A DNA stretch of 64,000 nt from a virus. Both the position numbers and the translations under genes were made by a program. Below the pieces are notes generated by a model. It was not told the origin of the DNA. It saw only the letters and a program-made list of their open reading frames with translations, and did not search any database. Location of the stretch: positions 1-64,000 of the IMG/VR virus record IMGVR_UViG_3300032213_003144; one strand, given 5' to 3'. Positions 3,393 through 24,011 of this stretch are shown one piece after another; positions within the stretch are counted from its first letter, which is position 1; each line of letters begins with the position of its first letter.

Positions 3393-3651
3393 ATCTATAT
3401 TCTAGGGAACACCTGACAAGAAGTAAAGCATTTGATGAAAGTTCTCACGGGTTGCTAGTTAGCAAGTCTTGCGAATTAGAACTTATCGGAAGCCCCCCGT
3501 GTGATGGCCATAAAAGCACACAGGGGAAGCCCCGGCTTTTCCCCTGTGTGCTTGGGCGTGTGTGAGTTATCTATCAGGGAACTGGCGCACCCTTCGGGCT
3601 TGCCCTCAAAGTGGGGGGGTGGGTTTGGGGAGAGAACTCTCCCCTCGCCCG

Positions 3652-4050
3652 TCAGTAGCCCAAGACATTTTCGGCTGGAGTGCCTTCAGGGATGTACCCT
3701 GCGACCCACTCTCGGTTGAGACCACAGTCTGTCAGGAACTCGGCGAACTCGCTTGCCGATGTGTCACGCCAAGAGCCTGCGAGAGCCTCAACCATGCCGA
3801 ACGCAATCTGTGCGATGTGGAAGTGTGCGTCTCGGGAAATGGTGTCGTTCCAGTCGGACTCGGGTGTGTCCTTCTCCCAAGGGAAACCGCAGCGACCCTC
3901 GGTTGCGTCACGGTAGTCCTCGTAGTCAAGGCTGTCACGGCGCAACGCTTCGGTCTCGTAGTCGTGGTACGGCTCGGACATCAGACGCACCATGCGAGCG
4001 TGCGCCTGAATTGATTTGGCAACAATGGATTTTGCTTCATTGAGGTTCAT
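3652..4050 (-). CDS. hypothetical protein
   Basis: Start re-assigned to MNLNEAK, after an AAGGGA RBS and the promoter at 4081-4110. Confidence 0.7.
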   Translation of the reverse strand: MNLNEAKSIVAKSIQAHARMVRLMSEPYHDYETEALRRDSLDYEDYRDATEGRCGFPWEKDTPESDWNDTISRDAHFHIAQIAFGMVEALAGSWRDTSASEFAEFLTDCGLNREWVAGYIPEGTPAENVLGY

Positions 4051-4340
4051 GGTTTTCCCTTCGGTGTGTGGTGTGACATCAGCGTATCGGAAAGGGTACA
4101 GGCTTGACGAGTTATCTATTAGAGAAGGTCGGGTGCGTTTGAGTTTGGCCACAGAGAAACATCTGGGCTTTTGCGAAACATCTGGGCTTTTTATCGGAAG
4201 CCCCCCGTGACCAGAGCAGGTCAAAACATCGGGAAGCCCCGGCTAAAACTCGAAAAAAAAATGAAAGAAAACTGGCGCACCCAACGAAATGAGTTGGGCT
4301 TGCCCTCGGGGGGGGAGGGCAAGCACCAGTTATCTATTAG

Positions 4341-4691
4341 TCACTCCCAACTGATGAAGCCAGTATCTGGGTCGGTGTAGTTCGGAGCAGAGTGGTCTAC
4401 TGCGACTTCACTGAAACCCATCGGCTCGACACGGTACAACTTCACACCAATTCGGATTTCGTCACCAACACTCAACGCCGTGTGTGTCCGGTACGAAGCG
4501 AGTTGTGGCTCGATTTGTTCCCAGAGACGACCGGTGTACATGTTGGTCGCCATGAAAATCGCCTCGCAGATTGCGTCATGATTTTCCTCTGATGTGTCAA
4601 TGTCTCCGAAAAAGAGCGTGACGCTCGAGTGGAAACGTCCGGCGTCTTTGTCCTCCGGAAAAGCCTTCCAGTAAATCGTTCCTGTGTTCAT
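4341..4691 (-). CDS. YodL-like domain protein
   Basis: C-terminal TALSVGDEI...YRVEPMGF resembles the YodL SLSVxD...GF motif; promoter at 4723-4752. Confidence 0.55.
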   Translation of the reverse strand: MNTGTIYWKAFPEDKDAGRFHSSVTLFFGDIDTSEENHDAICEAIFMATNMYTGRLWEQIEPQLASYRTHTALSVGDEIRIGVKLYRVEPMGFSEVAVDHSAPNYTDPDTGFISWE

Positions 4692-4900
4692 GTGATGTCC
4701 CTTCGTTGTGTGGTGTACCACCACCATATCGGGAGCGTTACAGACTAGCCAGAGTTATCTATTAGTAAATCGAAAAAACGAGAATTTGTTATCGGAAGCC
4801 CCCCATCTGCCACAAAAAACCAGACCTACACAGACAGCCCCGCTCTACCTATAAGCTGTATTAGATAAATCTATCTAGAAGGTAAGTGAGAGGACAGACT

Positions 4901-5923
4901 ATGGCACACGGGTTAGAGATAACAGCAGATGGGGTAGCCCGTATGGCGTACTCCAATAGAGAGATACCGTGGCACAGGCTTGGGGTATCAATGAACGGGT
5001 TGCAGACAGTGGAAGCAATGCTTCAGGCTGCGAAGGCTGACTTCGACGTGGTTACAACACGGGTTGCTGTGTGTGACGATAACGGTGAGCCAATTAGAAA
5101 CCCAGACAATTCGCCAGTGCTCATCAATGACAGTCGCGCGACCGTACGGGTGAACAGCGACGGCACATTTGACGGGCTATCTACGGTTGGAACTCGCTAC
5201 GTAGTCCAACAGAACAAAGAGTGCATGGACTATGCGCTTGCGATAGTCGGCGCTAGCAAGGGTGACGCAGTAGTGGATACCTGTGGCGTTCTGAACGAGG
5301 GGCGTGAGTTTTTCGCCTCGCTCGACTTGGGCTCGCTAATCATTGACCCAATGGGCATAAACGACAGCATTGAGCGTTATCTATTAGTGAGAAACGGGCA
5401 CGACGGCAAGACGCCGATTACCTTCGCAAATACTTCTATTCGTGCCGTATGTAAGAACACGGTAATCGCTGGTATGAAAACTGCGAAGCGTGTGTTTACT
5501 GCTCGTCACACTAGAAACGTTGAGAGCGCAATAGAGCAGGCGAACGAGGTTCTCAATATCTCTAATGTCTGGGCTGCAGAATTTACAAGAACAGCAGAGA
5601 AACTTCTTTCGGTGAAAGTTGCACCTGGAACAAAGATATTCGGCGACGTGCTTGACGCTGTATTTCCTCTGGAGAGTGGCTCTACGTCAAGACAAAAGAA
5701 AAATAGAGATAATGTCTTGTCTCTTGTCAAGGGTGTTTATGAAAGTGACAACAATGCAAAGGGCTATGGGTATAACGGTTGGTCAATGCTGAACGCAATT
5801 GGTGAATACCTAGACCACTACCGAGAAGCAACACCGATAGAAAGAGCATTAGCGTCAATGGATAACAACTCTTGGGTAACTCGAGCCAAGATGATAGCTC
5901 AAGACAAACTCTTGTCAGTATAA
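4901..5923 (+). CDS. DUF932 / phage-plasmid-like protein (TIGR03299 type)
   Basis: PWHRLG, RYVVQQN, YLLVRNGHDG, IRAVCKNT and RHT motifs. Confidence 0.85.
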   Translation: MAHGLEITADGVARMAYSNREIPWHRLGVSMNGLQTVEAMLQAAKADFDVVTTRVAVCDDNGEPIRNPDNSPVLINDSRATVRVNSDGTFDGLSTVGTRYVVQQNKECMDYALAIVGASKGDAVVDTCGVLNEGREFFASLDLGSLIIDPMGINDSIERYLLVRNGHDGKTPITFANTSIRAVCKNTVIAGMKTAKRVFTARHTRNVESAIEQANEVLNISNVWAAEFTRTAEKLLSVKVAPGTKIFGDVLDAVFPLESGSTSRQKKNRDNVLSLVKGVYESDNNAKGYGYNGWSMLNAIGEYLDHYREATPIERALASMDNNSWVTRAKMIAQDKLLSV

Positions 5924-5976
5924 AAAGCATTTTCGGTTGTATCATTTATCTATAACCCCCACGAAGTGAGGCAGTA

Positions 5977-6420
5977 GTGAGCGAAGAACACGACGAAGAA
6001 GCATCGGACTTCCCAGATGACTTCTCTGATGACGCGCCAACTAGAGAAGAACTAGCTATTTGGCTTAGTGAGTTTATGTCGCAGTCGCAAAAAGCAACGG
6101 CAATGTACCGTAACCACTTCTGCAACCTACTAGTCGCAAAGCTTCACTACGAATTCGGCACCGAAGGTATGTGTGAACTGATGATGGCTATCGACAAGAG
6201 GGCTGGATGGGTGTCTGACATAATTATCGAGGACAACGATATTCATGATGTTCTATTCCGTGAATATGGTGTATTCGATAATGAAGCAATAATCAAGGCA
6301 CGGATGAGCAGCCAACTTACCGAAATGAATAAGAAAATATGGAGACTTAGAAAGAAGTACTCCAGACTTATCGCCGAAGAAATAGTCGCTGGCGCTAACG
6401 CCAGACACACAGAAGCGTAA
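5977..6420 (+). CDS. hypothetical protein
   Basis: 147-aa ORF with GAGG RBS. Confidence 0.7.
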   Translation: MSEEHDEEASDFPDDFSDDAPTREELAIWLSEFMSQSQKATAMYRNHFCNLLVAKLHYEFGTEGMCELMMAIDKRAGWVSDIIIEDNDIHDVLFREYGVFDNEAIIKARMSSQLTEMNKKIWRLRKKYSRLIAEEIVAGANARHTEA

Positions 6421-8391
6421 TTACCTCTTAGAGGCTCTCTCCATAAGGTTTAGTATCAACTGAACCGCACCCTCTGTCTCGGCGAACTCTCCGCCTTCTA
6501 CTGCAGCGTTTACAACTGACCTTTTGTTATCTATTAGTGTATAAATGTATTCATCTATGGTTCCGCTGGTCAGCATGTATGTAGCGGTCACAGAACCTTT
6601 CTGCCCGAGACGGTGAAGTCTCGAGTAGGTCTGGTCTACGTCTGCGGGTGTCCAGGGAAGTTCTATGAATAGGCACTCCTCGGATGAAGTTAGGGTGTGT
6701 CCTGTCTTTGCTGCCTGTATGGATAGCACGATTACTGGCGCTTCCTCTACCGATAGCGTCTGGAACTTCCTCTTGTTCTCCTCTACTTCCTCAACCTTCA
6801 TGCCACCCTGGATACGCAGACCGCCAAACTTTCTGGCTAGTTCGTCGACCACGTCTCTGTGGTGAGCAGCAACGACGACTTTCTTTCCATTATCTACTCT
6901 TTCTTGTATCCACTCCATGGCTGCTTCCATCTTGGCTTTAGCAGCAAGTCTCCTAAGGACTGATAGTCGTACGAGGTGTTCGTTCGCTTCTGCTCTAATC
7001 ATTGCTGACATAGCAGCGTTGTACGAAGGTAGTCCTTGCTCTATCGCCAATTGACGGGCTCTCTCTGCGATGTACATCAAGATGTCTTCTTCCGCCTTGA
7101 CGTATTCCTTCATTGCCGGCGCTGAACCGTCTACAACTAGTCGGCTATGTACTACGGGTGGTAACTCTGATAAGACTTGGTCCTTGGTTCTACGTATGTA
7201 GCATGCTCCACGTAGTCGTTCGTTTAGTTCGTCGAGGTGTGAGTTGCCACTTAGGTTCCATTGACCGAACCTGTCTTGATACGCTGCGCAATACCTTCGA
7301 TAGAAGCCCCATAGACCACCGAAGTCCTTCAGCCTTCCGAGTATGTCTAACTGACTTGCGTACTCTGCTGGTCTATTGGTTACGGGTGTTCCAGTTAGAC
7401 ACAGTACGGGTGTATTTTTCTTTGTACTTCTGGCTATCTTGACTGCCGCCTTTGTTCTTTGCGCTGTCGATGTCTTACAGTAATGACTTTCGTCAAATAC
7501 GTACGAGCCATGTTCCATTAGTTGGGACTGCCACGCTTGTATGTTGCTGTACCCAACGACAACGACGTCATAAGAGTTCTCGAGTGGGAAAGACTTTCTA
7601 TTGGTTACTGCGCTCACTCGTCTATGCGGTACCCACTTGGATATCTCGTATGACCAGTTCAGCACAAGGCTTGGTGGACAAACGATTACCGCTGGATAGA
7701 TATCTCCCTCACGTGACGACAGATATTCCAACGTTGCTATTGCTTGTATCGTCTTTCCTAATCCCATCTCGTCTGCGATAAACGTTCGTCTCGCGTTCGC
7801 AGCATAAGCAACTCCAGCTTTCTGGTACGGCAATAGTTCTCCGGTCAAACCGGGGACAACGATGTTGGCGTCTGTCGAGCGAGAAGCTTCTATCAGTGTA
7901 TTTATTTCAGTATTTACTCTTTGTAATATTGCTGTCACGCCGGCGTCTACGGGTACATCGAAACCGTTCGCCCACTCGATTACCTGTGTTATCGATGACA
8001 ATGGTGCGCGCCACGAATATCTATCGCCATCCCAGGACACGGCAGGTATCTTCTTTACCGCTGAAATAATTACTCTTTCGTACGGGAACTTCATGTAAAT
8101 CATTTCATCATGAAGTGATACTCGCTTATCCCCCTGTGACGTAATGCTTTTAGGAGCCTGGAATTTGAGTATGTCCGAAGTTATGTCGAACTCGTATTTG
8201 AGAGCGAACTCTCTGGCCGAAGCAATAGATGTTATTGGTACTCTCCAGATACGTGAGACCTTGTCCCACCTAGCTCCCTCGACACGCTTCATCTCGTTGA
8301 CCTGTTCCTGGTCGTACGGGAAGTCAAAGAGGAGCTCTTTCCCATCCAGATACATCTTCATCAGGGAAGTATATTCCAGATGGGTAACCAC
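6421..8391 (-). CDS. SNF2-family (HARP/SMARCAL1-like) helicase
   Basis: ADEMGLGKT, DESH, LTGTP, RRTKDQVLSELP and SRLHRLGQ motifs; two N-terminal HARP-like repeats (FPY...W.....W). Confidence 0.92.
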   Translation of the reverse strand: MVTHLEYTSLMKMYLDGKELLFDFPYDQEQVNEMKRVEGARWDKVSRIWRVPITSIASAREFALKYEFDITSDILKFQAPKSITSQGDKRVSLHDEMIYMKFPYERVIISAVKKIPAVSWDGDRYSWRAPLSSITQVIEWANGFDVPVDAGVTAILQRVNTEINTLIEASRSTDANIVVPGLTGELLPYQKAGVAYAANARRTFIADEMGLGKTIQAIATLEYLSSREGDIYPAVIVCPPSLVLNWSYEISKWVPHRRVSAVTNRKSFPLENSYDVVVVGYSNIQAWQSQLMEHGSYVFDESHYCKTSTAQRTKAAVKIARSTKKNTPVLCLTGTPVTNRPAEYASQLDILGRLKDFGGLWGFYRRYCAAYQDRFGQWNLSGNSHLDELNERLRGACYIRRTKDQVLSELPPVVHSRLVVDGSAPAMKEYVKAEEDILMYIAERARQLAIEQGLPSYNAAMSAMIRAEANEHLVRLSVLRRLAAKAKMEAAMEWIQERVDNGKKVVVAAHHRDVVDELARKFGGLRIQGGMKVEEVEENKRKFQTLSVEEAPVIVLSIQAAKTGHTLTSSEECLFIELPWTPADVDQTYSRLHRLGQKGSVTATYMLTSGTIDEYIYTLIDNKRSVVNAAVEGGEFAETEGAVQLILNLMERASKR

Positions 8392-8517
8392 TGACGGGCC
8401 ACGTACGAGCAGCCATCGAAGGGAAATAAGATGGTTCCCGTAGTGACCCGTCAGCCACCACGTGAGCCACCCTACAGATGCGGCATCAGACTAGCCACGG
8501 GATATCATGTAGTACCT

Positions 8518-8727
8518 ATGACCCAACCTATGTACTCTCTCTTTAAATGTGTTGTATGTGGTTTACCACTGGACCCGTCTAGCTCTAATTCGGAAAGGCT
8601 GGGCGTTGTCTGGCTTAAGTCAAACGGCAGGACGGTTAACCGGGTTGTAGAGGAACTTCACTCATACAAGCATGACTTCTGTAACGACAAGGGGATGACC
8701 GACTATGTGCAAGATGCGCTTTTCTAG
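8518..8727 (+). CDS. small zinc-finger-like protein
   Basis: CVVCG...HDFC; start uncertain. Confidence 0.5.
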   Translation: MTQPMYSLFKCVVCGLPLDPSSSNSERLGVVWLKSNGRTVNRVVEELHSYKHDFCNDKGMTDYVQDALF

Positions 8728-8984
8728 ACTGGCCGGACGGCTGCGAAACATACGGGCAGTTATCTATTGGAAGAAGAACAGTCTTCTCGCCCCACCATGT
8801 GAGTACTGCATATTCGAAGAGACAAAGATGCCTAATGCGCGTGGCCGGATGAAGTACTACCCGGTTTGGATTACATGTACGAATCCACAATGGGGTGGGC
8901 CGGCAAATGAAGGATGTCAGTGGGGAAACGTTTAAGTTATCGGAAGCCCCCCGTTTCCGGTTAGAGCGGGGCTCCGCCCACTTA

Positions 8985-9155
8985 TTAGAGGCTGTCCTCC
9001 AAGTCATCATAGGCTTCTTGGTCAAGAATAAACTCATTTCCCTTTTCATCAAAGTTTTCGAGCAAGAACATTTCGTGATGAATCGAGCACCAAATGAAGT
9101 CGGTGACTAATCGTGTTTTTCCAATGTCGGAGCAGCGTTCGCAGTAAGTTGTCAT
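8985..9155 (-). CDS. small hypothetical protein (56 aa, not in ORF track)
   Basis: Hand translation MTTYCERCSDIGKTRLVTDFIWCSIHHEMFLL..., directly after the promoter at 9162-9191. Confidence 0.65.
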   Translation of the reverse strand: MTTYCERCSDIGKTRLVTDFIWCSIHHEMFLLENFDEKGNEFILDQEAYDDLEDSL

Positions 9156-9350
9156 GCGGCCATCGTATCACTGAAGGTACAGACTAGCCGAGTTATCTAT
9201 TAGAGAAAGACACCCCGGAATCATTTGCGGCCGTTACGCTTAGTTAGCCAACAAATCCACTCTGGGTTGAAGCCCCGGGGGAAACGGTTGACAACGGGGC
9301 TTCTTTCGCACGATGTTCGGCTCTGAGCACGGGGGGCTTCCGATAACCCA

Positions 9351-9510
9351 CTGGTACTCGGTGGTACTCACTGGGAGACACTGACGAACACTGGCACTCT
9401 GTAGCGCTCTGTAGCGCTCGGTGGTGAACACTCACACTCTGTAGCACTCGGTGGTGAACACTCACACTCTGTAGCGCTCTGTGACGGACACTGGTGGACA
9501 CTGACGCTCG
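9351..9510. repeat. degenerate 10-bp-period tandem array
   Basis: 16 decamers such as gtggtgaaca/ctcacactct/gtagcgctct, with a near-perfect 30-bp duplication. Confidence 0.85.
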
Positions 9511-9583
9511 GTGTATTACTAATAGATAACTATTTACCGTGAGAGTGTGACGCGCAGAACGCGCCACACTCTCTAATAGATAA

Positions 9584-9925
9584 CTATTCGGCTAGTGCTT
9601 TGTGGATGTTGCCGACTAGTTCTTGAGCCTGTGAACCACGACCCAGTGAGCGCGTATTAGTGTCAGCGCCAATTTGATTCGCGAGCCAGTACAAAAACTC
9701 AAGGTTATACACTGCTTTTAGTTCTTGTACTACAGAACCATCATCAGCGAATATCGTTCCCTTGTATGTACCGTCAGACTCATGGGTCTGCACTAATCCT
9801 GCCTCGGTCAATTCACTTAGCGTGAAGTGTGGCGCGTAATACTCGGGATAGAACAAAGTATGTCCGTCTCCGATAATTATTTTTGCTTTTATTGCCTCAC
9901 GTACTTTTTCTTTTGTGATGTTCAT
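9584..9925 (-). CDS. hypothetical protein
   Basis: Start MNITKEK after a GAGGGG RBS. Confidence 0.7.
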   Translation of the reverse strand: MNITKEKVREAIKAKIIIGDGHTLFYPEYYAPHFTLSELTEAGLVQTHESDGTYKGTIFADDGSVVQELKAVYNLEFLYWLANQIGADTNTRSLGRGSQAQELVGNIHKALAE

Positions 9926-9984
9926 ATTTTCCCCTCGCTGGTAGTTATCTATTAGTGAATAAAAGTGTTGGTAATCGTGAGCGA

Positions 9985-10332: not shown

Positions 10333-10448
10333 TTTTTCTCCCTTGTTAGTTGTGGTCATAATCAAATCGTACTAAGCGCGGTACAAACTAGACGCTCTAG
10401 GAATCCCTTATACAGCATGGTGAATAGTTATCTATTAGTAGATAACGC

Positions 10449-10901: not shown

Positions 10902-10910
10902 AGTTATCTA

Positions 10911-11531: not shown

Positions 11532-11755
11532 ATAACCAATGTACCAATTCAGTAACAGAATAGCAAGGGTTATCGGAAGCCCCCCGTGTTCTAGCTCAGA
11601 ACAAATCACCAGAAGCCCCGGCCAAAACGCTGGCGCACCCACCAAAAGAGGTGGGCTTGCCCTCAAAGTGCGGGGCTTGTCCCCCTGTCGAGCGGCTAGT
11701 CTGTACCCGGGTTGGTACGATGTCCGTCTACGGACATCTACCACAAGGAGCACAC

Positions 11756-12061
11756 ATGGAAAAAAGACATCACCCACACGCTGCGGAAATAATCGCAGCA
11801 ATCAAAGCCCTACCCGCTTACAACGACCCGCAAAACCTTTTCGAGTCGGAGCTGCGCGAGTGCTACGAGGACTCCGACTTCATTGAGGACTTCGGCTTTA
11901 ACCACGAAACTGGCAAGCCGAACTCCGTCAAGACGGCTGTGAAATATGTTCTCGAGCGCTGCGAAATTCGGCAAGATGTTTTCGGTTGGATTGTCGAAGA
12001 GGGTGACCGAGAGCGAGAGGCTGCTCACGAGGATTTGCGCAAGGAAATCTTCGGCAGCTGA
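11756..12061 (+). CDS. hypothetical protein
   Basis: AAGGAG RBS; promoter at 11692-11721. Confidence 0.7.
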   Translation: MEKRHHPHAAEIIAAIKALPAYNDPQNLFESELRECYEDSDFIEDFGFNHETGKPNSVKTAVKYVLERCEIRQDVFGWIVEEGDREREAAHEDLRKEIFGS

Positions 12062-12352
12062 ACTCCTCGCGGCGAGTTGCTCACGCACTTCGTGCGTGGG
12101 CTTCTCGCTTGGGAGAGCCCCGGCTCAACACGAAAACCGCGGGGCTTTCCCCTTCGGGGAAGGCTTCGGCGTCACGGGGGGCTTCCGATAACACGGCTGG
12201 CGCACACCTACGGTGTTTGCCCTCAACCTCGCAGGGCTACCTCTAATAGATAACTCTCGGACTAGGACAATCTCTAATAGATAACTAATGGTGGCAAGTC
12301 TGTAAGCGTCTTACTAGGCTTGTAGTACCACTACAACCACAAGGGGGCAAGT

Positions 12353-12838
12353 ATGAGCGAAGTACCAACCAACCGAATAGATGTTGCTGTTGCTTATTTG
12401 GAATTGCATTATCACGCTAATTCTTTCTATGCGAGTTTGTTCTATTCATTTCAGAAAAATGGAACTCTGACCATCAAGCAGATAGAAGCCGTTGAGAAAG
12501 ATATCGCTATTGCTGAATTGCGTGTCAAGTCGGAAGTAAATCCCGTGACTGTTATCGGTATGTACCGAAATGCTGACGGTGTGTTTCGTGTGAAGCAAAG
12601 CAAGGAAAGTGGCAATCTCTACGCTATGCGTCTTGTTCCAGAAGCAACCACCAAGTCAGAACGCTTTACATACGAGCGTGGTGGCATTTATAAACTCACG
12701 GCTGATAATCGTATGACCGTAGAGGAGTGCGCTGAACTTGGCTTGCTGTACTCAATGTGTGTCATCTGTGGCGCAGACCTCACCGACCCAAAGAGCGTTG
12801 CTCGGGGTATGGGTGCTACTTGTGCCAAGAACGTCTAA
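12353..12838 (+). CDS. DUF6011-type zinc-ribbon protein
   Basis: C-terminal CVICGADLTDPKSVARGMGATCAKN. Confidence 0.75.
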   Translation: MSEVPTNRIDVAVAYLELHYHANSFYASLFYSFQKNGTLTIKQIEAVEKDIAIAELRVKSEVNPVTVIGMYRNADGVFRVKQSKESGNLYAMRLVPEATTKSERFTYERGGIYKLTADNRMTVEECAELGLLYSMCVICGADLTDPKSVARGMGATCAKNV

Positions 12839-12868
12839 TCACTAATAGATAACTAGAAAAGGGGAAAA

Positions 12869-13150
12869 ATGAACATCATCACATCAGTATTCATAAGCGC
12901 ATTATTTCTATCCAGTCCGTTATGGCTTGCTGTAATTATCGGAAAACTCAAGTCACGCCGAGAAGCCAAAAAAAACCTAATCCAAGACACGATAGAGAAC
13001 GCTATGCGTCAAGGATACGACTGGGGCTATGAGACGGGCTACCTAGACGCAGAACTAGAAAAAGACCCAAACTACACACCAAGTCCAAGTCCATTTAGTT
13101 ACTGGAACATTGGATATAACCAACCACAACATCAAGGAAGCGAGAAATAA
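12869..13150 (+). CDS. membrane protein
   Basis: N-terminal TM helix; AGGGG RBS. Confidence 0.7.
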   Translation: MNIITSVFISALFLSSPLWLAVIIGKLKSRREAKKNLIQDTIENAMRQGYDWGYETGYLDAELEKDPNYTPSPSPFSYWNIGYNQPQHQGSEK

Positions 13151-13769: not shown

Positions 13770-14064
13770 TTGCTCATCATACCGACACAGAACCTTTGCG
13801 ACTTATCGGAAGCCCCCCGTGTTCAGAGATGCGACAGCCCCACAGGGAAGCCCCGGCAAACACACCCGCCCGCGGGGCTTCTCCCCAGCTCGGCACCTGC
13901 GCGTCACGGGGGGCTCCCGATAACAAGCCCAGACGATTCACAACCTGCCGCGCGCTCTCGCGCTTGCCCACACGCGAACACGGCGCAATCTCTAATAGAT
14001 AACTTGGCAAGCCTGTACCAGCGCTGATATTCTAATAGATAACTACTACGAAGGGAGCAAGGTT

Positions 14065-14373
14065 ATGGGCAGAGTATTTGCAGAGGAATTGAGTAGCGAT
14101 GAGTTTGGTCTAGGTCTATCGGAGTCAATCCGTATTCACCTAGTGAGCAATCACTACCCACCAGTTCCAGCGTCAATGGTGCCAGTGTGCATGCAAGCGA
14201 TTCAGAGTTACAACGAGAATATGAACGGCGATGAGCGCTTGGAATTGCCTAACGGCGTATCGTGGCGAGGCGAGGCAACCGCGCCAGCATGGGCAATCAT
14301 TGAGAGTCACCACCTGCATGCTTGGTGCGATTCAGACGAGGATTACTACGATGAAGAGGGAGACGCGCAATGA
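14065..14373 (+). CDS. hypothetical phage protein
   Basis: AAGGGAG RBS; HLVSNHYPPVP motif. Confidence 0.7.
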   Translation: MGRVFAEELSSDEFGLGLSESIRIHLVSNHYPPVPASMVPVCMQAIQSYNENMNGDERLELPNGVSWRGEATAPAWAIIESHHLHAWCDSDEDYYDEEGDAQ

Positions 14374-14657
14374 GCGATGACACAAGGGTAATCACTTGCC
14401 TGAACGATGGTAATGAGGCAAGCCCATGCGAAGGCGTGGTGGAGTTCCATCCTGCGTTGCCCGTTCGTTGGCACAATTCAGGCGCAATGGTGCAATTCCC
14501 ACGATGCGCGGAGCACTACATGAAGTATTGCGATGCACACGATGAGCGCCAAGCGCGAGACGAACGGCATCGCGCAAGTCTGTACTGCGAACACGGTACT
14601 TACATTGGCGATGCTTGGGGCCCTGACTACTTGTGCGGTCGTTGCGAGTCCGAGTAA
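14370..14657 (+). CDS. Cys/His-rich hypothetical protein
   Basis: CEHG...DYLCGRCE. Confidence 0.65.
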   Translation: MSDDTRVITCLNDGNEASPCEGVVEFHPALPVRWHNSGAMVQFPRCAEHYMKYCDAHDERQARDERHRASLYCEHGTYIGDAWGPDYLCGRCESE

Positions 14658-14962
14658 CGCGAAGTTATCTATTAGTGATTCACGCCGATTCACTGATAGA
14701 TAACTCTGCATCGTGTGGGCAAGCGCGTGAGCGCGCGCCAGCGTTTGTCGAATGGCGTCGGGAGCTCGGTGCGGGGGAAGCCCCGCGGGGAACGGCGCTA
14801 GCCGGGGCTTATCCCCGAGCGATAGGCTCTGTTTGGACACGGGGGGCTTCCGATAACTCTCTGCTGTTTCTTTCTTTCTTTCTTATTCTGTGAGGGTGCT
14901 TGACTTTCTTTCCAGAGTTACCTAACCTAATAGATAACTACTAACCACAAAGGGGATACGCA

Positions 14963-16733: not shown

Positions 16734-16754
16734 TCCCCTTCCAGAGAAAAGCCC

Positions 16755-17654: not shown

Positions 17655-17732
17655 TCTGTCTAGTCTGTATCGGGGGCGTAAATGCCCCCGATACACTAAT
17701 AGATAACTCCAACTACTAGGAAAGGGGCAGAA

Positions 17733-18152
17733 ATGCCAACAGCATTACTACTAAAGACAACGGGCGAAGTAATCCCGTTAGAACTCACCAACGACAACGA
17801 CCACGAACTAATCCGTGAAAGTGTCGGGGGCTGGTTTGACTGCGTGAGAAATCACGAAAGGCGCATTGTCGGTTATGTTCACGACGAAGGGCTACTCATT
17901 GGACTGCCAGCAAATCCAGTTTCGTCGTTTCTCTTTGACCAAGTTCTCGCAGGTGACTGCGTTATCGTTGGCTCTTTCAGCGAGGCTGGAGAGTATGACG
18001 GAGAGAGCCACGAACTCCCTAAGATGTTTCACTCGGGTCGTTTCGTGGAAATGGCAAGCGAAATGGGCGCAGATATCAAACTCAATGAGAAACTAAACGC
18101 TCTGCTCGCTGGAGTGGACACAAGTTTTACAGTTACCGAGTGGTCTGAATAG
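17733..18152 (+). CDS. DUF3846-like protein
   Basis: VGGWF...DEGLLIGLPAN...LAGDCVIVG. Confidence 0.7.
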   Translation: MPTALLLKTTGEVIPLELTNDNDHELIRESVGGWFDCVRNHERRIVGYVHDEGLLIGLPANPVSSFLFDQVLAGDCVIVGSFSEAGEYDGESHELPKMFHSGRFVEMASEMGADIKLNEKLNALLAGVDTSFTVTEWSE

Positions 18153-18463
18153 TTATCTATGAGAGAGTGGTGCGAAATCCGTGCCACTCTCTCACGGAAG
18201 TATTACTAATAGATAACTCTCTCTAATAGATAACTCCAATTCCGTCAGGGGGAAGCCCCGCTGGAACGGCTTTCTGTCGGGGCTTCCCCCGAAGGGGAAG
18301 GCTTCGGCGCATACGGGGGGCTTCCGATAACTGGCGCACCCTGTCGCTTCGCTTCGGGTTTGCCCACAAGTGAGCCGACTATCCCTAATAGATAACTTGG
18401 TAAGTCTGTACCGTGCCTAGTATGATGAACTTGTAAGTAACCACCAACCACGAAGGGAATACC

Positions 18464-18910
18464 GTGAACATTACAGAGTTAGCCGAGAAAGTAGAAAGCG
18501 AAGTCAATGACAACCTTGGGTTTGACCTAAAGCAAGCCCTACTTGTATCCGTTACAGACGGACTATTTGGAATTGAGTTGTCCGACCCACTCGCACACGG
18601 AGATGTGTACGAACTCATTGAGAGTGACGCTTCATTGGAATTGGCGAAGCGTTCAGCCTTTATCGCAATTGTTACTTGTGGTTGGGCTGCGCCTATCCGT
18701 GCCAATGATGATGATGAAGTAGCACCAAGCCAACACCCTGACCGTAGGCGTGTCCGTCTAGTCGTACTCGCTAGCCGTAGTTCGGTAGCAAGTGTGCTTC
18801 GCTTTAGCGATACACCTGATGAGACAGTTACAGATGAAGGCAAGGCTACGGGTTCGCTCGCAGACGCTATTCTCAAACTGATGGCGCAGAGCGCAAGTCA
18901 CCTGAACTAA
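18464..18910 (+). CDS. hypothetical protein
   Basis: GWAAP...PSQHPDRRRVR; promoter at 18397-18426. Confidence 0.7.
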   Translation: MNITELAEKVESEVNDNLGFDLKQALLVSVTDGLFGIELSDPLAHGDVYELIESDASLELAKRSAFIAIVTCGWAAPIRANDDDEVAPSQHPDRRRVRLVVLASRSSVASVLRFSDTPDETVTDEGKATGSLADAILKLMAQSASHLN

Positions 18911-19149
18911 TAGATAACTCAAACTCTCGCCACGACACTCACCACCCCCCGAGTGTCGTGGCGTTAGTTATCTAATAGATAACTCAAACCAACTCGGCGC
19001 ACTCGGTCGGGGGGAAGCCCCGCCACCAACGCTTTTGGCCGGGGCTTTTTCGAGCTGAAAGCAAGAGCGCAACACGGGGGGCTTCCGATAAGTTGGCAAG
19101 TCTGTACCGTGTCCAGTATGATGACATCACCTAACCACAAGGAGAAAAA

Positions 19150-19452
19150 ATGGAAAATCACCTCACACTCATAAACGGCAGAACATCAGACCTGACTTTC
19201 GCCGAACCAGAAATTGGAGAAATCCTTGAGACTGGCGCAACGATACTCGCCCTCACGAAGCAGACAGAACGAGTTGTTGGAGACAGTTACGCAAGTTGGG
19301 TGACTGTCTGTTACAAGGCTGGAACTGATTACCACCCGTTTGTTGTTTGGACTGTTATCGCTCGCCCAGACGGTTTCTCGGCGCAGACTGGTGACTACGC
19401 TTTCACGCTCACGGAAGCAATGAGTTACTACGAGAGGCGTGGTGGCAAGTGA
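19150..19452 (+). CDS. hypothetical protein
   Basis: AAGGAG RBS; promoter at 19093-19122. Confidence 0.7.
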   Translation: MENHLTLINGRTSDLTFAEPEIGEILETGATILALTKQTERVVGDSYASWVTVCYKAGTDYHPFVVWTVIARPDGFSAQTGDYAFTLTEAMSYYERRGGK

Positions 19453-19715
19453 CCCGTATGTTCACTGAATACATCGGTGGAACGACTGACTGGTTTCAGT
19501 GCCTCTGTGGAAATCAGCCGAATTATGACGGTTTCTATTCGTGCCGAAGCACTGGAGAAATTGTCTCACCAACGCTCTATGGAGAGTGGGACGAAACTAC
19601 CTACCTCTGTGAGCGTTGTAGTCGGATTATCAACGGCAATACACTGGAAGTCATTGGAGTATGTTCAGAGCAAGTCGCTTTCAGCAATTCCAATTTTGAC
19701 TGGAATTCTTACTAA
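19449..19715 (+). CDS. zinc-ribbon-like hypothetical protein
   Basis: CLCGN...GFYSC...CERC. Confidence 0.65.
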   Translation: MTRMFTEYIGGTTDWFQCLCGNQPNYDGFYSCRSTGEIVSPTLYGEWDETTYLCERCSRIINGNTLEVIGVCSEQVAFSNSNFDWNSY

Positions 19716-19736
19716 TAGATAACTGGGAGAACGAAA

Positions 19737-19925
19737 ATGAGCAAAGCAGGCGAGCGAGTGAGGTTCATATCCTCATCAGACCCATACACAAAATTGCGTG
19801 AAGGTGATGAGGGTGTAATTACAAATGTAGATTCACTTGGCACGACACACATCAACTGGGATAGTGGAAGCACTCTCGGGATGATTCAGAGTGAGGGTGA
19901 CTGTTTTGAGATTATCGGGAACTGA
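19737..19925 (+). CDS. DUF4314-like protein
   Basis: GERVRF..DPY....GDEGVITNVDSLGTTHINWDSGSTLG. Confidence 0.75.
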   Translation: MSKAGERVRFISSSDPYTKLREGDEGVITNVDSLGTTHINWDSGSTLGMIQSEGDCFEIIGN

Positions 19926-19928
19926 CTG

Positions 19929-20297
19929 ATGTCTCTAATAGATAACTATTTCACTCGTATTTGGACGTTTCTATCTATCGCCTTTCAGATTCTCGTAGCA
20001 AGAATTCAGGAGAAAAAAGTAATCGGTGGAGAGGGTGAGGTCCATTGGGTTGACCTAACCAAAGAGGAGAGGCAAAACCTTGTAGGCATTTTCCCACACG
20101 GGCATAGTCTCTACTTCTCCATATCGCCAGAGCCAGTCGGTGCGATTTTTGATGACTACGGGATTCCAGATGATGAGGTCTTTCACTACTTCACGGGCAT
20201 ACGAGAGATTCTCAAGCACTCACTCGTAGCGCATGCAGAGGGCTGGCGAATCGCTTCATGCCACCTCGTTTCAGCCAAAGAGGACCTGCTGGATTAA
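19929..20297 (+). CDS. hypothetical protein
   Basis: 122-aa ORF; start uncertain. Confidence 0.55.
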   Translation: MSLIDNYFTRIWTFLSIAFQILVARIQEKKVIGGEGEVHWVDLTKEERQNLVGIFPHGHSLYFSISPEPVGAIFDDYGIPDDEVFHYFTGIREILKHSLVAHAEGWRIASCHLVSAKEDLLD

Positions 20298-20555
20298 CTA
20301 ATAGATAACTCGAATATTTTCTCAAAGAAGCCCCGCGTGCAACAAATGGGGCGGGGCTCCGACCTGACGAAGGCAGGCTCGGTGGACGGGGGGCTTCCGA
20401 TAACCAAGCAGTCACGGGGGGCTTCCGATAAGTCGGGCGCAGAAACTTGTGGGTCACTCTCTAATAGATAACTTTATATGACGGTGGTGGATGAGTTGTC
20501 AAGTCTGTACCTGTGGGGATATAGTGGGTCATACCACAACTACCTAAGGAACGAC

Positions 20556-21287
20556 ATGCCAAACTGGTGCTACCAAAACCTAGAAGTACGAGGACCGTCA
20601 CACGACCTTGATGATTTCATTGACGCTATGCAAGTTACCGAGCCTGACAGTGCAGGTGTTATGCAGACAAGCGTAGAACTGAATCAAATGTGTCCAGTTG
20701 ATGACAGGACATTTGCTTACAAAACAATTACTGATGAAGCAGGCAAAGAAACACTAATCAAGACATACGCAACTCTTAGCGAGAACGGCTTTGACGGATA
20801 CGGACACTGTGTTGAGATTTGGGGTACGAAGTGGGGCGCATGCCATATCGTATGGGATGGAAAAAAGGGAAAATATCCAATACGCATTTACTTTGAGAGT
20901 GCATGGTCACCTGCCTGTGGTCTTATCAAGGCGATATCAAGCAAGTTCCCAACACTCTTATTCGGACTTGAGTTCACAGAGGAAGCAGATTTCTTTGCAG
21001 GCTGTGAGGTGTACCAAAATGGCAAGACCATAGCCGTCCACGACATAGGTTCGGCAGAGTCGGACGAAGCAGACGCTTTCTTAGCAACGATACAGGGCAA
21101 GGCGCAAGCGAGCGAAACAGAAGTGTCCGACACTGACTGGGAAACTTATTATGACCTGTGTTCCCAAGCAAGAGAGATTCGTGATGAGAAATTACTGAAA
21201 GTGTTTGCCAAGTCAATGAACGACTTTGGCAAGTCATACTCATCAAAGCCACCGAAAGGCAAGGTGAAAAATCAAGAACCTTTCTAA
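20556..21287 (+). CDS. DUF1281/Api92-like ferredoxin-fold protein
   Basis: MPNWC, WGTKWG and FESAWSP motifs; start re-assigned to MPNW. Confidence 0.75.
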   Translation: MPNWCYQNLEVRGPSHDLDDFIDAMQVTEPDSAGVMQTSVELNQMCPVDDRTFAYKTITDEAGKETLIKTYATLSENGFDGYGHCVEIWGTKWGACHIVWDGKKGKYPIRIYFESAWSPACGLIKAISSKFPTLLFGLEFTEEADFFAGCEVYQNGKTIAVHDIGSAESDEADAFLATIQGKAQASETEVSDTDWETYYDLCSQAREIRDEKLLKVFAKSMNDFGKSYSSKPPKGKVKNQEPF

Positions 21288-21335
21288 TAGATAACTCAAT
21301 ACCCCCCAAAAAAACAAACAAGCAAAGGAAACAAC

Positions 21336-21557
21336 ATGAGTACCATGATTCAGAAAGAATCCAAGAAAATTGCACTACGACTACTCCGTGAGCGTCAAGA
21401 GCGAGAGTGGTCACAGCAGGAACTTGCCGACAAGGCAGGAATTGACAGAAAAACCGTGAATCGTATTGAGAACCTTCACTTCTCACCGAGCATGGAAACA
21501 TTTCTGCGCCTATGCAATGCAATGAAAGTTCAGGCACACGAAGTACTAAAGGGTTAA
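21336..21557 (+). CDS. XRE-family HTH transcriptional regulator
   Basis: WSQQELADKAGIDRKTVNRIEN....PSMET. Confidence 0.9.
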   Translation: MSTMIQKESKKIALRLLRERQEREWSQQELADKAGIDRKTVNRIENLHFSPSMETFLRLCNAMKVQAHEVLKG

Positions 21558-21676
21558 TTGGTGTTGTGGTGGTCGCTGTGCGACTTTGCATAGCGACCAC
21601 ACTCACTAATAGATAACCTGTCTAGTCTGTACCCTTCCTGATACGATGAAGCCACCACAACCAAAAGGAGTAAGCC

Positions 21677-22354
21677 ATGTCAGAAAATACTGATGATTTC
21701 CGAAACCAAAAAATGTTCTCCGTCTTAGAGGACGCTATGGAACGAGCGATGTACGCAAAGACCGAGATGTGCAAAGATGAACCGATGTCCGACAACCCAC
21801 CGATGTTGCTGGTTGGATACGACAAAAAAAATGTAGAGGAAAAAACACGCCTGACCATTGGTGACGATGATGAAAGTGAAATGCAAATTGGCATGGTTCC
21901 ACTGATTCACAAGGACGATGTTCGTGAGTGCTTGGTGGACGCTATCGGCGCAATTCCAACTCAAAAGTTTGAGTTCTTGATTCTCGCAGTTGAGGGATAC
22001 AAAGACACAATGACAGAAAACGGAGAAATGCCCGAAGGCTGGTCAAGGGGTGACTTGGGCAAAGACTTTAAGGAGAACCCTTTCACGACTGTTAAAGAGG
22101 GCGTAATCGTGAGTGGCGTTGACTGGGAACATGAATACGCAATAAACGGCGCATGCACATACTCCTACGATGACAAGGGCGTTCCACAGTGGGATGAAGT
22201 TATGTGGTCTGAAATTGAGATTTCAGAGGAGACTGGCATGATGACATTTATCATGGCGAGTGCCTGTGAGTTTATGAAAAAGAAAATAATCACAGAATCC
22301 TTCCACGCACTGTTGGAAGCAACACCGAAAAAATCAAAGAAAGACAAGGAGTAA
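21677..22354 (+). CDS. hypothetical protein
   Basis: AAGGAG RBS; promoter at 21618-21647; stop lies in a box variant. Confidence 0.75.
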   Translation: MSENTDDFRNQKMFSVLEDAMERAMYAKTEMCKDEPMSDNPPMLLVGYDKKNVEEKTRLTIGDDDESEMQIGMVPLIHKDDVRECLVDAIGAIPTQKFEFLILAVEGYKDTMTENGEMPEGWSRGDLGKDFKENPFTTVKEGVIVSGVDWEHEYAINGACTYSYDDKGVPQWDEVMWSEIEISEETGMMTFIMASACEFMKKKIITESFHALLEATPKKSKKDKE

Positions 22355-22363
22355 TAGATAACT

Positions 22364-22519
22364 ATGGGTGACGATGTAATCGCACAAGTTACGACACTTG
22401 TTGACAAGGCAATAAACACAATATCGGGCAGAGAGTTGGTAGCGTCAGCCGAAATGGTTGACCTACTACTTGACATCCGACTACTACTACTAGACACAGA
22501 AGCAAAGGAAACAGCATGA
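22364..22519 (+). CDS. small hypothetical protein (51 aa, not in ORF track)
   Basis: MGDDVIAQVTTLVDKAINTISGRELV...; ATGA coupling to the next gene. Confidence 0.6.
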   Translation: MGDDVIAQVTTLVDKAINTISGRELVASAEMVDLLLDIRLLLLDTEAKETA

Positions 22520-22881
22520 CAACGCACCTAACCAACGAGGAACGCATGAACCCGTTCATGTCAGACAACTTTGATGTTGATGACCTGTCACTCATAACAG
22601 AGGCAATAGGTCTATACATTGAGAACGACTCTCGCTTGATGTACAACGCACCACAAGTTATGGAAGTTGCGAAAATCCAAAACGATGATGAGCGTATGCA
22701 GGCTCTCTCGCAACTGAAACCGAAGTTTGAGGGTCAGCCACTATCCGATGAGGAACTGGACCGACTATTACTAATAGATAACTTAGTGCTTGACGCTATG
22801 GGCGTGAAAGAAGCAGAGAGCGAAGTTGACGGAGTTATCTATTCATTGGAAGAACACCTTAAGAAAAATGGAAAGGAGTGA
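22516..22881 (+). CDS. hypothetical protein
   Basis: 121 aa; contains an exact 13-bp box read as LIDN. Confidence 0.7.
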   Translation: MTTHLTNEERMNPFMSDNFDVDDLSLITEAIGLYIENDSRLMYNAPQVMEVAKIQNDDERMQALSQLKPKFEGQPLSDEELDRLLLIDNLVLDAMGVKEAESEVDGVIYSLEEHLKKNGKE

Positions 22882-23157
22882 GTGGCGACACTTCGCCGTT
22901 CGAAGCCCCGCTGCGAGCACAAAAAAAATGAAAAAAATCAAACTTTTCAGAACGTGCGCTGCCACCGCCACCACCACCGCCGCCGCCGGCCGCAGGACTG
23001 TACAAAAAAATCGTTTTATTTGACGGTGGCGGATGAGCCGGTGCGCATTGTAGACCTATGGAAAAATCCAGTTTATAAATAGGTGTATTGCTAGTCTGAT
23101 GCCCGCTCATTACACTGAGTCCATAGATAACTTTTACCCAAGAAAGCAGGGATTACT

Positions 23158-23643
23158 ATGCAGTCAATAACCGAACAATTCGTGAACAGCGTTAATAAGG
23201 AACTATGGGACGAAGCAACCGAGAGGCATAAATCCAAGTTCGCCGTTCCAGCAGATGAGGTTAACTACATAGGAGAAATTGTTCGTGGACTCCATGTACT
23301 AGGGATATGGCAAAGAGAGGGTCAGGCTCGCCCGCCCGAATCTTTCCTGCGGTCTTACTCTGTTCTGGATTTCGTGATTCCTGACCTACTCCAGAAATAT
23401 TTGGGTAAATCTACGGTCTTGTCGCTCGACGAGATAAAGCCAGAAAAACGAGAAAAGAAGTGGGGTGCTTTCATTGAGTGGGCAAAACTTCACGAAGCAG
23501 AACAGTTCACCACCGAACAACTTGTAGAGATATGTGGTTTCTCCTACCCGACCACGCTTGAGTACCTACGGATTTCTCCATACTTCAGGAAAATCAAGAA
23601 GGGTCTTTACGAAGTTATTGACCCCAAGACTCAAGACAAGTAA
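23158..23643 (+). CDS. hypothetical protein with C-terminal winged-helix-like segment
   Basis: FTTEQLVEICGFSYPTTLEYL....FRKIKKGLYEV. Confidence 0.65.
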   Translation: MQSITEQFVNSVNKELWDEATERHKSKFAVPADEVNYIGEIVRGLHVLGIWQREGQARPPESFLRSYSVLDFVIPDLLQKYLGKSTVLSLDEIKPEKREKKWGAFIEWAKLHEAEQFTTEQLVEICGFSYPTTLEYLRISPYFRKIKKGLYEVIDPKTQDK

Positions 23644-24011
23644 TTACTTCTAATAGATAACTTTTTCTCCTTTTTCTTCTTTTCTTAGGAGAGCCCCGGC
23701 CAACTCGCCGACAGGGCGGGGCTTCGCTCGGGGAACGAGCAAGCAGGCACACGGGGGGCTTCCGATAACTCTCTCGGCTGGACGGGGGGCTTCCGATAAC
23801 GCTGGCGCACCCTTCGCTTCGCTCGGGCTTGCCCACGCACCCACCGACTCTCTCTAATAGATAACTCCGAGCGCACCCTTTCTAATAGATAACTCTCTAA
23901 TAGATAACTCGCTACATATATAAATAGTCATAAATAAATGTTGGCTAGTCTGTACCCTTCCCGATACAGTGGGTCTTGCCATACCAACCACAACAAACAA
24001 GGAGAAAGAAA

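What the first reader, a model, noticed from the sequence alone, without database searches (positions are those of the whole stretch)
3582..23835. Six covarying hairpins CTGGCGCA-stem/loop-YTTGCCC, always on the + strand
Seen at 3582, 4272, 11630, 12197, 18331 and 23802. The flanks are conserved while the inner stem covaries: CCC/GGG, CCCAAC/GTTGGG, CCCACC/GGTGGG, CACC/GGTG. A constant asymmetric bulge (CT or TT) sits at the base. Unlike the other motifs it does not flip with gene direction, since the copies at 3582 and 4272 lie among minus-strand genes. Established: integron attC sites and HUH/REP targets are strand-specific hairpins recognised through extrahelical bases with variable loops. 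Inference: this may be a strand-specific ssDNA or RNA structural signal, such as a recombination, nicking or processing site.
Basis: partly seen in the sequence, partly recalled or inferred. Interest (0 to 1): 0.72.

Follow-up and report, generated by a model that had tools for sequence, protein, structure and literature searches.

The report
Polar mini-hairpin at phage cassette borders
A 170-kb lake phage of actinobacteria has eight copies of a tiny DNA hairpin with an invariant base and a freely changing stem. Each copy sits beside a terminator cluster and points into the next early-gene cassette, like the small hairpins that primases and one phage RNA polymerase use as start signals, but its reader and role are untested.

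Summary
The six copies are real, far above chance, and their stems covary. The claim "always on the + strand" does not hold. The genome has eight copies, all between 3.5 and 24 kb: seven on + and one on - (14741). Related phages carry copies in both orientations.

The rule that does hold is geometric. The left box always faces a terminator-like T/B cluster, and the element points into the adjoining cassette. Five copies in this genome lie upstream of a co-directional gene. Three face the 3' end of a convergent gene. This argues for a DNA-level signal rather than an RNA-level one.

That is the cap of the very stable DNA mini-hairpins found at N4 virion-polymerase promoters, RSF1010 ssiA and the G4 origin. 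Both flanks are identical across phage clades in which every other intergenic motif has drifted.

The integron/HUH idea is not supported. I found no integrase, Y1 transposase, Rep or relaxase, and cassette breakpoints fall on the neighbouring T, B and A repeats, never on the hairpin.

Best reading, at low confidence: an extruded DNA hairpin read at its constant base as a polar start or entry signal. The scan had not followed this element up before.

The parts
3582..3605 (+). D copy. Upper stem CCC/GGG, loop TTC. Faces the 3' end of minus gene 3652-4050. This site is kept in three clades of relatives with other stems.
4272..4305 (+). D copy with a 6-bp upper stem and a 7-nt loop. Faces the 3' end of minus gene 4341-4727. 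Lies in a cassette (4245-4820) that relative L045 lacks.
11630..11662 (+). D copy with a 6-bp upper stem. Lies about 30 nt upstream of a sigma70-like promoter (11694-11722) for plus gene 11756-12061.
12197..12222 (+). D copy. Stem CACC/GGTG, loop TAC. Lies 5 nt after a B box and 21 nt before an A box; gene 12353-12838 follows.
13945..13969 (+). Variant D copy with two changed letters in the left box, stem CGC/GCG, loop TCTC. Left member of an inverted pair around genes 14065-14657.
14717..14741 (-). Variant D copy on the minus strand, with the left box ending in G and loop TCAC. Right member of the inverted pair. Its left box faces the T/B cluster at 14777-14856.
18331..18365 (+). D copy that abuts a B box with 0 nt between and lies 20 nt before an A box. 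The 14-nt loop holds TTCGC-type repeats. Gene 18464-18910 follows.
23802..23834 (+). D copy 2 nt after a B box and 20 nt before an A box, upstream of the AAA_5 ATPase gene 23976-24734. Orthologous copies in relatives show CAC/GTG, or no upper stem.
3483..3534 (-). T/B cluster beside the 3582 copy
4191..4241 (-). T/B cluster beside the 4272 copy. The T1 arm is missing.
11570..11620 (-). T/B cluster beside the 11630 copy
12140..12191 (+). T/B cluster beside the 12197 copy
13847..13923 (+). T/B cluster beside the 13945 copy. It shares its T hairpin with a minus-strand B box at 13803-13816.
14777..14856 (+). T/B cluster beside the minus-strand copy at 14741
18252..18330 (+). T/B cluster beside the 18331 copy
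23717..23799 (+). T/B cluster with two B boxes beside the 23802 copy

Best explanation
Shown. D is a 24-35-nt imperfect palindrome found only in the intergenic regulatory modules of the early region. It has a constant base: a left box, a right box, a 3-4-bp lower stem and a small internal loop. Above that sit a variable upper stem and loop. It always lies next to a terminator-like T/B cluster, with its left box towards the cluster, so it points into the neighbouring gene cassette whatever the gene's direction.

Inferred. D works at the DNA level. Negative supercoiling, or transient unwinding, extrudes it. The D* arm is the stable one. A factor that is conserved across these phage clades, or supplied by the host, reads the constant base rather than the apex. 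The known small DNA hairpins of this build are N4 virion-polymerase promoters, RSF1010 ssiA and the G4 complementary-strand origin. By analogy, the most likely role is a polar start or entry signal from which synthesis of a primer or a transcript runs away from the terminator cluster into the cassette. The phage's own Toprim-type primase fused to a RepA-like helicase (152270-154066) is the most concrete candidate reader. No hairpin-dependent RNA polymerase was found.
For: - Covariation with invariant flanks.
- The flanks are identical in clades whose helicase is only 60-70% identical, while the A box, B box and promoter spacer differ by clade.
- Geometry: a T/B 8-mer lies within 100 nt on the left-box side in 20 of 22 distinct copies, and on the other side in 1 of 22.
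- The same flanks are kept in copies that are sense and antisense to genes, 5 versus 3 in this genome. One RNA reader cannot explain that.
- Cap: C-GN(N)A-G occurs on 0 of 22 written strands and 18 of 22 complementary strands. The full GCGN(N)AGC mini-hairpin occurs in 13 of 22.
- Middle loop letters include pyrimidines at the third place (GATA, GACA, GTCA, GTTA) and triloops (GAA, GTA). This fits the DNA rule (any N) better than RNA GNRA.
- There are no wobble pairs in any upper stem.
- Reviews state that such mini-hairpins sit at G4, ssiA and N4 start sites, and that the enzymes read the base of the hairpin, not the cap (PMC13037366; PMC4496689).
- A primase-helicase is present.
Against: - No experiment or transcript data exist.
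- The hairpins are weak by nearest-neighbour energies.
- Most relatives lack D altogether although they share the replication genes, so D cannot be essential.
- One orthologous copy (G008) keeps both boxes without an upper stem.
- Nothing explains why a priming site should always adjoin a terminator cluster.
- If D is a promoter, three of eight copies would make antisense RNA, and no matching polymerase was found.
- The strand bias by site type is 8:2, which is not statistically significant.
Confidence: 0.3

Rival explanations
1. Operator or insulator. The same extruded hairpin or cruciform is bound by a regulatory protein that tunes or shields the adjacent promoter and A boxes, with no initiation at D. 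This resembles the unexplained ESAS elements that precede the 13-bp start-associated boxes of Cluster K mycobacteriophages. It could also act as a polar roadblock.
For: In four copies D lies 20-23 nt upstream of an A box and 0-20 nt after a B box. A boxes sit 13-26 nt before many start codons, like SAS. ESAS are imperfect inverted repeats with a variable spacer upstream of about half of the SAS, with function unknown (PMC3203893; PMC12699233).
Against: The distance from D to the sigma70-like promoter ranges from 22 to 104 nt. Three copies have no promoter on the side they point to.
Confidence: 0.22
2. RNA element. D, or its complement, is a hairpin in early transcripts. Possible roles are a terminator or stabiliser at 3' ends, a processing site, or an antitermination site read by a conserved host factor or by RNA polymerase.
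For: The complementary-sense hairpin lies just after the stop codon of three genes. At 4272, 11630 and a relative's extra copy it is followed by a U-rich run. G...A loops are also stable in RNA. The written strand keeps a G.U-type pair in the lower stem.
Against: Any single RNA sense covers only part of the copies: 5 of 8 for the written strand and 3 of 8 for the complement. Both groups nevertheless keep identical flanks and are retained in other clades. No wobble pairs occur in the upper stems. Many tetraloops are GNYA, not GNRA. There is no Rfam match even at E of 5. A plain terminator does not need invariant flanks.
Confidence: 0.17
3. Site-specific recombination or nicking site. This would be an attC-like folded strand, an HUH/REP target, or a T5-like strand-specific nick site that moves or marks cassettes.
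For: D sits at cassette edges and points inwards. One inverted pair (13945/14741) brackets a two-gene cassette and is kept in close relatives. Cassettes are gained, lost, moved and inverted between relatives. The conserved outer arms with a variable centre resemble attC in outline.
Against: There is no tyrosine recombinase, Y1 HUH, Rep_trans or relaxase, and only one sub-threshold HNH match, about 80 kb from the nearest copy. All internal breakpoints map to T, B or A repeats, which fits homologous exchange between repeats. The attC core motifs are absent.
Confidence: 0.06
4. Selfish or neutral palindrome. D is a REP/MITE-like mini-element, or a by-product of repeat turnover, with no function for the phage.
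For: Its distribution among relatives is patchy and copy number runs from 0 to 9. It is always close to other repeats.
Against: Copies within one genome differ in stem and loop but keep identical flanks and pairing. The flanks are unchanged across clades at 60-70% protein identity, and an orthologous site shows a compensatory change. That is purifying selection, not recent spread.
Confidence: 0.08

Closest known systems
Early promoters of coliphage N4 read by the virion RNA polymerase
   Same: A small DNA hairpin in the early region of a phage. The stem is partly free to vary as long as it pairs. The enzyme reads the folded strand (PMC4496689; PMC13037366).
   Different: N4 has three promoters, all co-directional with the early genes at the injected end. 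D has a second, lower stem and an internal loop, often a 4-nt cap, and three of eight copies point against genes. No N4-like or T7-like polymerase was found in this genome.
Single-strand initiation signals: RSF1010 ssiA/ssiB and the G4 complementary-strand origin
   Same: A mini-hairpin cap on a stem whose base and single-stranded flank are what the primase reads. ssiA has the same CCGAAGG apex as the complement of the 3582 copy. ssiA and ssiB lie on opposite strands as an inverted pair. Function is strand-specific and independent of genes.
   Different: Those signals lie in defined origins, one or two per replicon, and are about 40 nt or longer. D occurs up to nine times, only beside terminator clusters of early genes, and is missing from most relatives. 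The phage primase is Toprim-type, not RepB'-type.
ESAS upstream of SAS in Cluster K mycobacteriophages
   Same: Also actinophages. A 13-bp asymmetric box lies before many non-structural genes. About half of these boxes have an upstream pair of imperfect inverted repeats with a variable spacer. Function is unknown (PMC3203893).
   Different: ESAS arms are 17 bp and differ by subcluster. The D arms are 7-8 nt and invariant, and the spacer is itself a covarying stem. ESAS follow gene direction, while D follows the terminator cluster.
PeSLs, the promoter-terminator repeats that mediate shuffling in T4-type phages
   Same: Repeated regulatory motifs bracket small early genes in a hyperplastic region, and exchange takes place at them (PMC2839356, PMC4122927). 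The same pattern appears here at the T, B and A repeats.
   Different: This describes the neighbouring repeats, not D. No breakpoint falls on D, and PeSLs have no component with an invariant base and a covarying stem.
Integron attC sites
   Same: Conserved imperfectly paired outer arms, unpaired positions, and a variable centre. One folded strand is the active form.
   Different: The core sequences and the size (57-141 nt) do not match. There is no integrase and no array, and cassette junctions lie elsewhere.

Membership tests
Integron attC | Integron-type tyrosine recombinase encoded with the sites | tested here: not met
   No PF00589 match in six frames of the 170-kb genome; the control genomes all matched
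Integron attC | Cassette junctions fall at the site, and sites lie at the 3' ends of co-oriented cassettes | tested here: not met
   Breakpoints in nine close relatives fall on T, B or A repeats and none on D. D lies at 5' or 3' sides of genes of both directions
Integron attC | Conserved R/L core arms (RYYYAAC ... GTTRRRY) with extrahelical bases | tested here: not met
   The D arms have a different sequence. The unpaired positions form a symmetric 2x2 loop. The attC consensus is from my own knowledge
HUH targets (REP/RAYT, IS200/IS605, Rep or relaxase nic sites) | Cognate HUH enzyme present | tested here: not met
   No Y1_Tnp, Rep_trans or Relaxase match. Other HUH families were not searched
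HUH targets (REP/RAYT, IS200/IS605, Rep or relaxase nic sites) | Copies nearly identical over the whole palindrome | tested here: not met
   Stems and loops differ between all eight copies
N4-type hairpin promoter | Short stem with a 3-nt C-GNA-G capped loop on the template strand and conserved flanking bases | tested here: met
   C-GN(N)A-G on the complementary strand in 18 of 22 distinct copies and on the written strand in none; invariant flanks. About half of the caps are 4 nt, and there is an extra lower stem
N4-type hairpin promoter | Hairpin-dependent single-subunit RNA polymerase carried in the virion | tested here: not met
   No PF00940 match, but the control was silent too, so this search is uninformative. 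The three giant cargo proteins give no polymerase hit in Pfam, PHROGs, PDB sequences or the protein atlas. No two-barrel catalytic motif in a convincing context. A very divergent enzyme cannot be excluded
N4-type hairpin promoter | All copies upstream of and co-directional with early genes | tested here: not met
   Five of eight are co-directional and three face gene 3' ends
Single-strand initiation signal (ssiA, G4 type) | Mini-hairpin-capped stem with a sequence-specific base and flank | tested here: met
   GCGN(N)AGC or CCGAAGG-type apex in most copies; invariant base
Single-strand initiation signal (ssiA, G4 type) | A primase that starts at the signal | not testable with these tools
   A Toprim-like primase fused to an AAA_25/RepA-like helicase exists at 152270-154066. 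Its specificity is unknown
Single-strand initiation signal (ssiA, G4 type) | Located in a replication origin | tested here: inconclusive
   No origin is known. GC skew follows gene direction only. There are no canonical DnaA boxes in the early region
Cluster K ESAS | Imperfect inverted repeats with a variable spacer just upstream of a 13-bp start-associated box | tested here: inconclusive
   Four copies lie 20-23 nt upstream of an A box and the others do not. There is no sequence similarity, and the arms are 7-8 nt rather than 17 nt
PeSL-type shuffling repeats | Exchange between relatives occurs at the repeat | tested here: not met
   Met for the T, B and A repeats but not for D itself

The most novel reading that the evidence does not exclude
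These large actinophages use hairpin-form DNA start signals in their early region in the way N4 does. On this reading the enzyme is unrecognised and delivered with the DNA, hidden in the unannotated two-thirds of the giant head-cargo proteins or assembled from the injected helicase, ssDNA-binding ArdC and sigma-region-4-like modules. D would then be the first hairpin promoter or entry site known outside N4-like phages. Its copies that point against genes would make antisense RNAs or primers.
Probability: 0.07. Interest if true: 0.85.

Novelty: new variant of a known kind. Interest (0 to 1): 0.55.

Why it matters
Small DNA hairpins that act as signals in double-stranded phage genomes are known from very few systems, N4 being the textbook case. 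Here a family of uncultured lake phages keeps such an element under clear purifying selection. Its cap is built for one DNA strand, and a simple positional rule ties it to terminator clusters rather than to genes.

If it is a start or entry signal, it would show that structure-specific initiation is more widespread than thought. It would also give a handle on how these phages, which inject large cargo proteins, begin their programme. If it is an operator, it would be a second, independent case of the unexplained SAS/ESAS logic of actinophages. This case has much sharper sequence constraints and is therefore easier to test.

Tried and rejected
- Sigma-54-type promoter. The two boxes resemble the -24/-12 elements, but the spacing ranges from 9 to 20 nt and actinobacteria lack RpoN (own knowledge).
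- Sigma70 -35 element. No -10 lies at a fixed distance.
- dsDNA two-half-site operator. Rejected because the spacing varies over more than one helical turn.
- Rfam families, at gathering score and at E up to 5: nothing.
- Pattern scans of viral and bacterial collections. Both were swamped by chance or coding matches in GC-rich DNA. Only relatives of this phage gave real copies.
- DnaA box. The right box plus two bases matches 8 of 9 positions of the actinobacterial consensus (from memory) in four copies only, and no canonical boxes lie nearby.
- Mycobacterial topoisomerase I site CGCTT(C/G) (from memory): present in only some copies.
- Chi-like site: resembles the E. coli octamer in 6 of 8 positions, but there is no reason for a hairpin.
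- GC skew for replication direction: it follows transcription only.
- A diverged hairpin family replacing D in relatives that lack it: none seen.
- Co-occurrence of D with the LysM-type gene or the AAA gene: patchy.
- Search for a polymerase in the giant cargo proteins: negative.


Full report
Setting. The window is the first 64 kb of a 170,425-bp virus record rated complete. It carries two WhiB genes, tail-fibre and capsid genes and three giant cargo proteins. Earlier notes of this scan call it a lake phage of actinobacteria. The stretch from about 2.3 to 27 kb is an early region of small genes. They are mostly minus-strand up to about 11.6 kb (DUF932 4886-5923 and 5977-6420 are plus-strand) and mostly plus-strand beyond that.

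Repeat families. The early region is crowded with four repeat families besides the finding.
- A is a 13-bp box, CTAATAGATAACT. Its 9-base core occurs 68 times in the genome, and it flips with gene direction. It often overlaps the previous stop codon and lies 13-26 nt before many start codons.
- T is a GC-rich terminator-like hairpin with arms GGAAGCCCCG and CGGGGCTTCC.
- B is a second copy of the T 3' arm followed by GATAAC (18 copies).
- C is a sigma70-like promoter with a conserved spacer.
I call the finding D and its complementary strand D*.

The observation. The six copies are exactly where stated. The left box alone is eightfold over shuffled expectation. A mismatch-tolerant scan and a covariance model built from 15 distinct copies find two more in this genome. 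One is at 13945 (+) and one at 14741 (-). There are none elsewhere in the 170 kb. So there are eight copies, seven on the + strand.

Structure. From the outside in, D has a 4-bp lower stem that includes a G.T pair, a 2x2 internal loop, a 3-6-bp upper stem, and a loop of 3-14 nt. Six of ten pairs show changes on both sides. Slid and shuffled controls fall far short. One relative changes a lower-stem pair from G-C to A-T. At the site upstream of the AAA ATPase gene, close relatives read CAC/GTG where this phage reads CCC/GGG. Nearest-neighbour energies are modest and not better than shuffles. The case for structure therefore rests on comparison between copies.

Relatives. The helicase, the LysM-type gene and the AAA gene were used as anchors.
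- Close relatives (87-97% DNA identity) carry three to nine copies each within the stretch available, most of them at matching positions.
- Three more distant clades, with 60-70% helicase identity, keep one or two copies whose boxes are letter-for-letter the same but whose stems differ. Examples are CCGTGC/GCACGG and GTGC/GCAC.
- One complete genome keeps both boxes upstream of the AAA gene with no upper stem. Another has nothing recognisable at that place.
- Most relatives have no copy.
By contrast, the A box, the A-like half of the B box and the promoter spacer read differently in each clade. Whatever reads D is therefore much more conserved than whatever reads A. D is also dispensable.

Orientation. 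In one clade the two copies lie on opposite strands. The variant pair 13945/14741 is inverted, and that arrangement is kept in close relatives. What holds is a positional rule. On the strand that reads left box to right box, a T/B cluster lies within 100 nt upstream in 20 of 22 distinct copies. The two exceptions have a diverged cluster. A cluster lies downstream in only 1 of 22. D thus sits on the outer edge of a terminator cluster and points into the next cassette.

In this genome five copies are upstream of, and co-directional with, a gene: 11630, 12197, 13945, 18331 and 23802. Four of these lie 20-23 nt before an A box. Three copies face the 3' end of a convergent gene: 3582, 4272 and 14741. 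Counted by site type across all genomes, the strand split is 8:2, which is not significant.

Which strand and which molecule. On the written strand every short loop begins with T and ends with C. The complement therefore reads C-GNA-G or C-GNNA-G in 18 of 22 distinct copies, against none on the written strand. Thirteen contain the full GCGNAGC or GCGNNAGC word. A 2026 review describes exactly these words as extraordinarily stable DNA mini-hairpins. It states that standard parameters underrate them. It lists their natural sites as the G4-type primase origin, RSF1010 ssiA (apex CCGAAGG, as in D* of the 3582 copy) and the N4 virion-polymerase promoters. In each case the enzyme contacts the base of the hairpin rather than the cap (PMC13037366).

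The N4 literature adds three points. The C-G closing pair and the G and A of the loop are what allow extrusion at physiological supercoiling. Non-conserved stem bases need only pair. SSB melts the other arm (PMC4496689).

Three further points favour DNA over RNA.
- The flanks are equally invariant in copies that are sense and antisense to genes.
- No upper stem contains a wobble pair.
- Many four-base caps have a pyrimidine at the third place, which the DNA rule allows but RNA GNRA does not.

The recombination idea. I found no integrase, Y1 transposase, Rep_trans or relaxase, and only a sub-threshold HNH match at 107.4 kb. Cassettes do move. One relative lacks 4245-4820. Another has the 18331-19005 cassette between 11677 and 12156. 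Two have 12240-12952 inverted. But every internal breakpoint lies on a T, B or A repeat. This is the pattern described for PeSL repeats in T4-type phages (PMC2839356, PMC4122927), and it points to homologous exchange between repeats. D travels as cargo of such cassettes.

Candidate readers. No T7-like or N4-like polymerase turned up. The giant cargo proteins show a prohead protease, ArdC, a zincin, a UvrD-like helicase, a weak sigma-region-4 match, an exonuclease and a ParB-like piece, and two-thirds of them remain blank. The genome does encode a primase-helicase fusion: a Toprim-like N-terminal half with PHROG primase matches, and an AAA_25 half with a faint match to RSF1010 RepA. It belongs to the conserved part of the genome, which fits the invariance of the boxes. 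But relatives without D have it too.

Conclusion. The element is real, selected, polar and most likely acts as DNA. I rank a start or entry signal of the ssi / hairpin-promoter kind first, at about 0.3. It is the only known use of this exact architecture, and it gives meaning to the rule that D points away from a terminator cluster. An operator or insulator role like that suspected for ESAS in Cluster K mycobacteriophages (PMC3203893; still unexplained in 2025) is nearly as likely. RNA, recombination and selfish readings rank lower, for the reasons given under each. None of this has been tested at the bench.

Noticed in passing
window 2300-27200, plus 169766: The 13-bp A box occurs 52 times in exact form, and its 9-base core 68 times. 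It flips with gene direction, often overlaps the previous stop codon, and lies 13-26 nt before many start codons with a Shine-Dalgarno sequence in between. Related phages use clade-specific versions. It resembles the SAS of Cluster K phages or the stoperators of Cluster A phages.
   Followed up: partly
window 3483-23799 (18 B boxes) and 169692: The T/B modules consist of a GC-rich terminator-like hairpin, about 30 nt of linker, and then a second copy of its 3' arm fused to half an A box. The A-like half changes with the clade's A box, so B looks like a weak A site attached to a terminator.
   Followed up: partly
window 4245-4820; 11678-12155; 12240-12952; 18331-19005: Whole early-gene cassettes are absent, replaced, moved or inverted between phages that are otherwise 83-97% identical. 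The breakpoints fall on T, B or A repeats, a PeSL-like shuffling pattern in an actinophage.
   Followed up: yes
window 13945-14741: Two variant hairpins form a 30-nt inverted repeat that brackets two small genes (14065-14373 and 14370-14657). The pair is kept about 797 nt apart in three close relatives. No inversion of the segment was seen.
   Followed up: partly
window 18339-18357, 23810-23826; L288:1029-1046: The long loops of three copies are made of two to three TTCGC units. Each pair of units gives GCGAAGC on the other strand, and the unit number differs between orthologous copies, which suggests slippage.
   Followed up: no
window 3627-3644: A hairpin after the 3582 copy shows compensatory changes in relatives. 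It may be a terminator of gene 3652-4050 or the end of a short plus-strand RNA that starts at the hairpin element. In more distant relatives the same place holds an 80-nt G/T-rich tract plus a hairpin.
   Followed up: partly
genome 152270-154066 (outside the window): A Toprim-like primase is fused to an AAA_25/RepA-like helicase. A WhiB gene lies just upstream (151964-152185), and a second WhiB lies in the window at 33260-33451.
   Followed up: partly
L186:8811, L198:20312 (-), L174:4575 (-): Another conserved small hairpin (stem TGGC/GCCA with a GCAA or GTAA loop and conserved flanks) recurs in relatives that lack the element studied here.
   Followed up: no
window 1-175 and genome end 170200-170425: Both ends of the record are C-rich on the plus strand, with CCTA-type repeats at the left end. 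Two related genomes that assemble as circles have no such tract, so the ends may be assembly breaks at a low-complexity tract inside the early region.
   Followed up: partly
window 13964, 14722 (-), 18360; 23829 has an 8-of-9 variant: The right box plus two bases reads TTGCCCACA, one letter away from the actinobacterial DnaA-box consensus as I remember it. No canonical boxes occur in the early region.
   Followed up: partly
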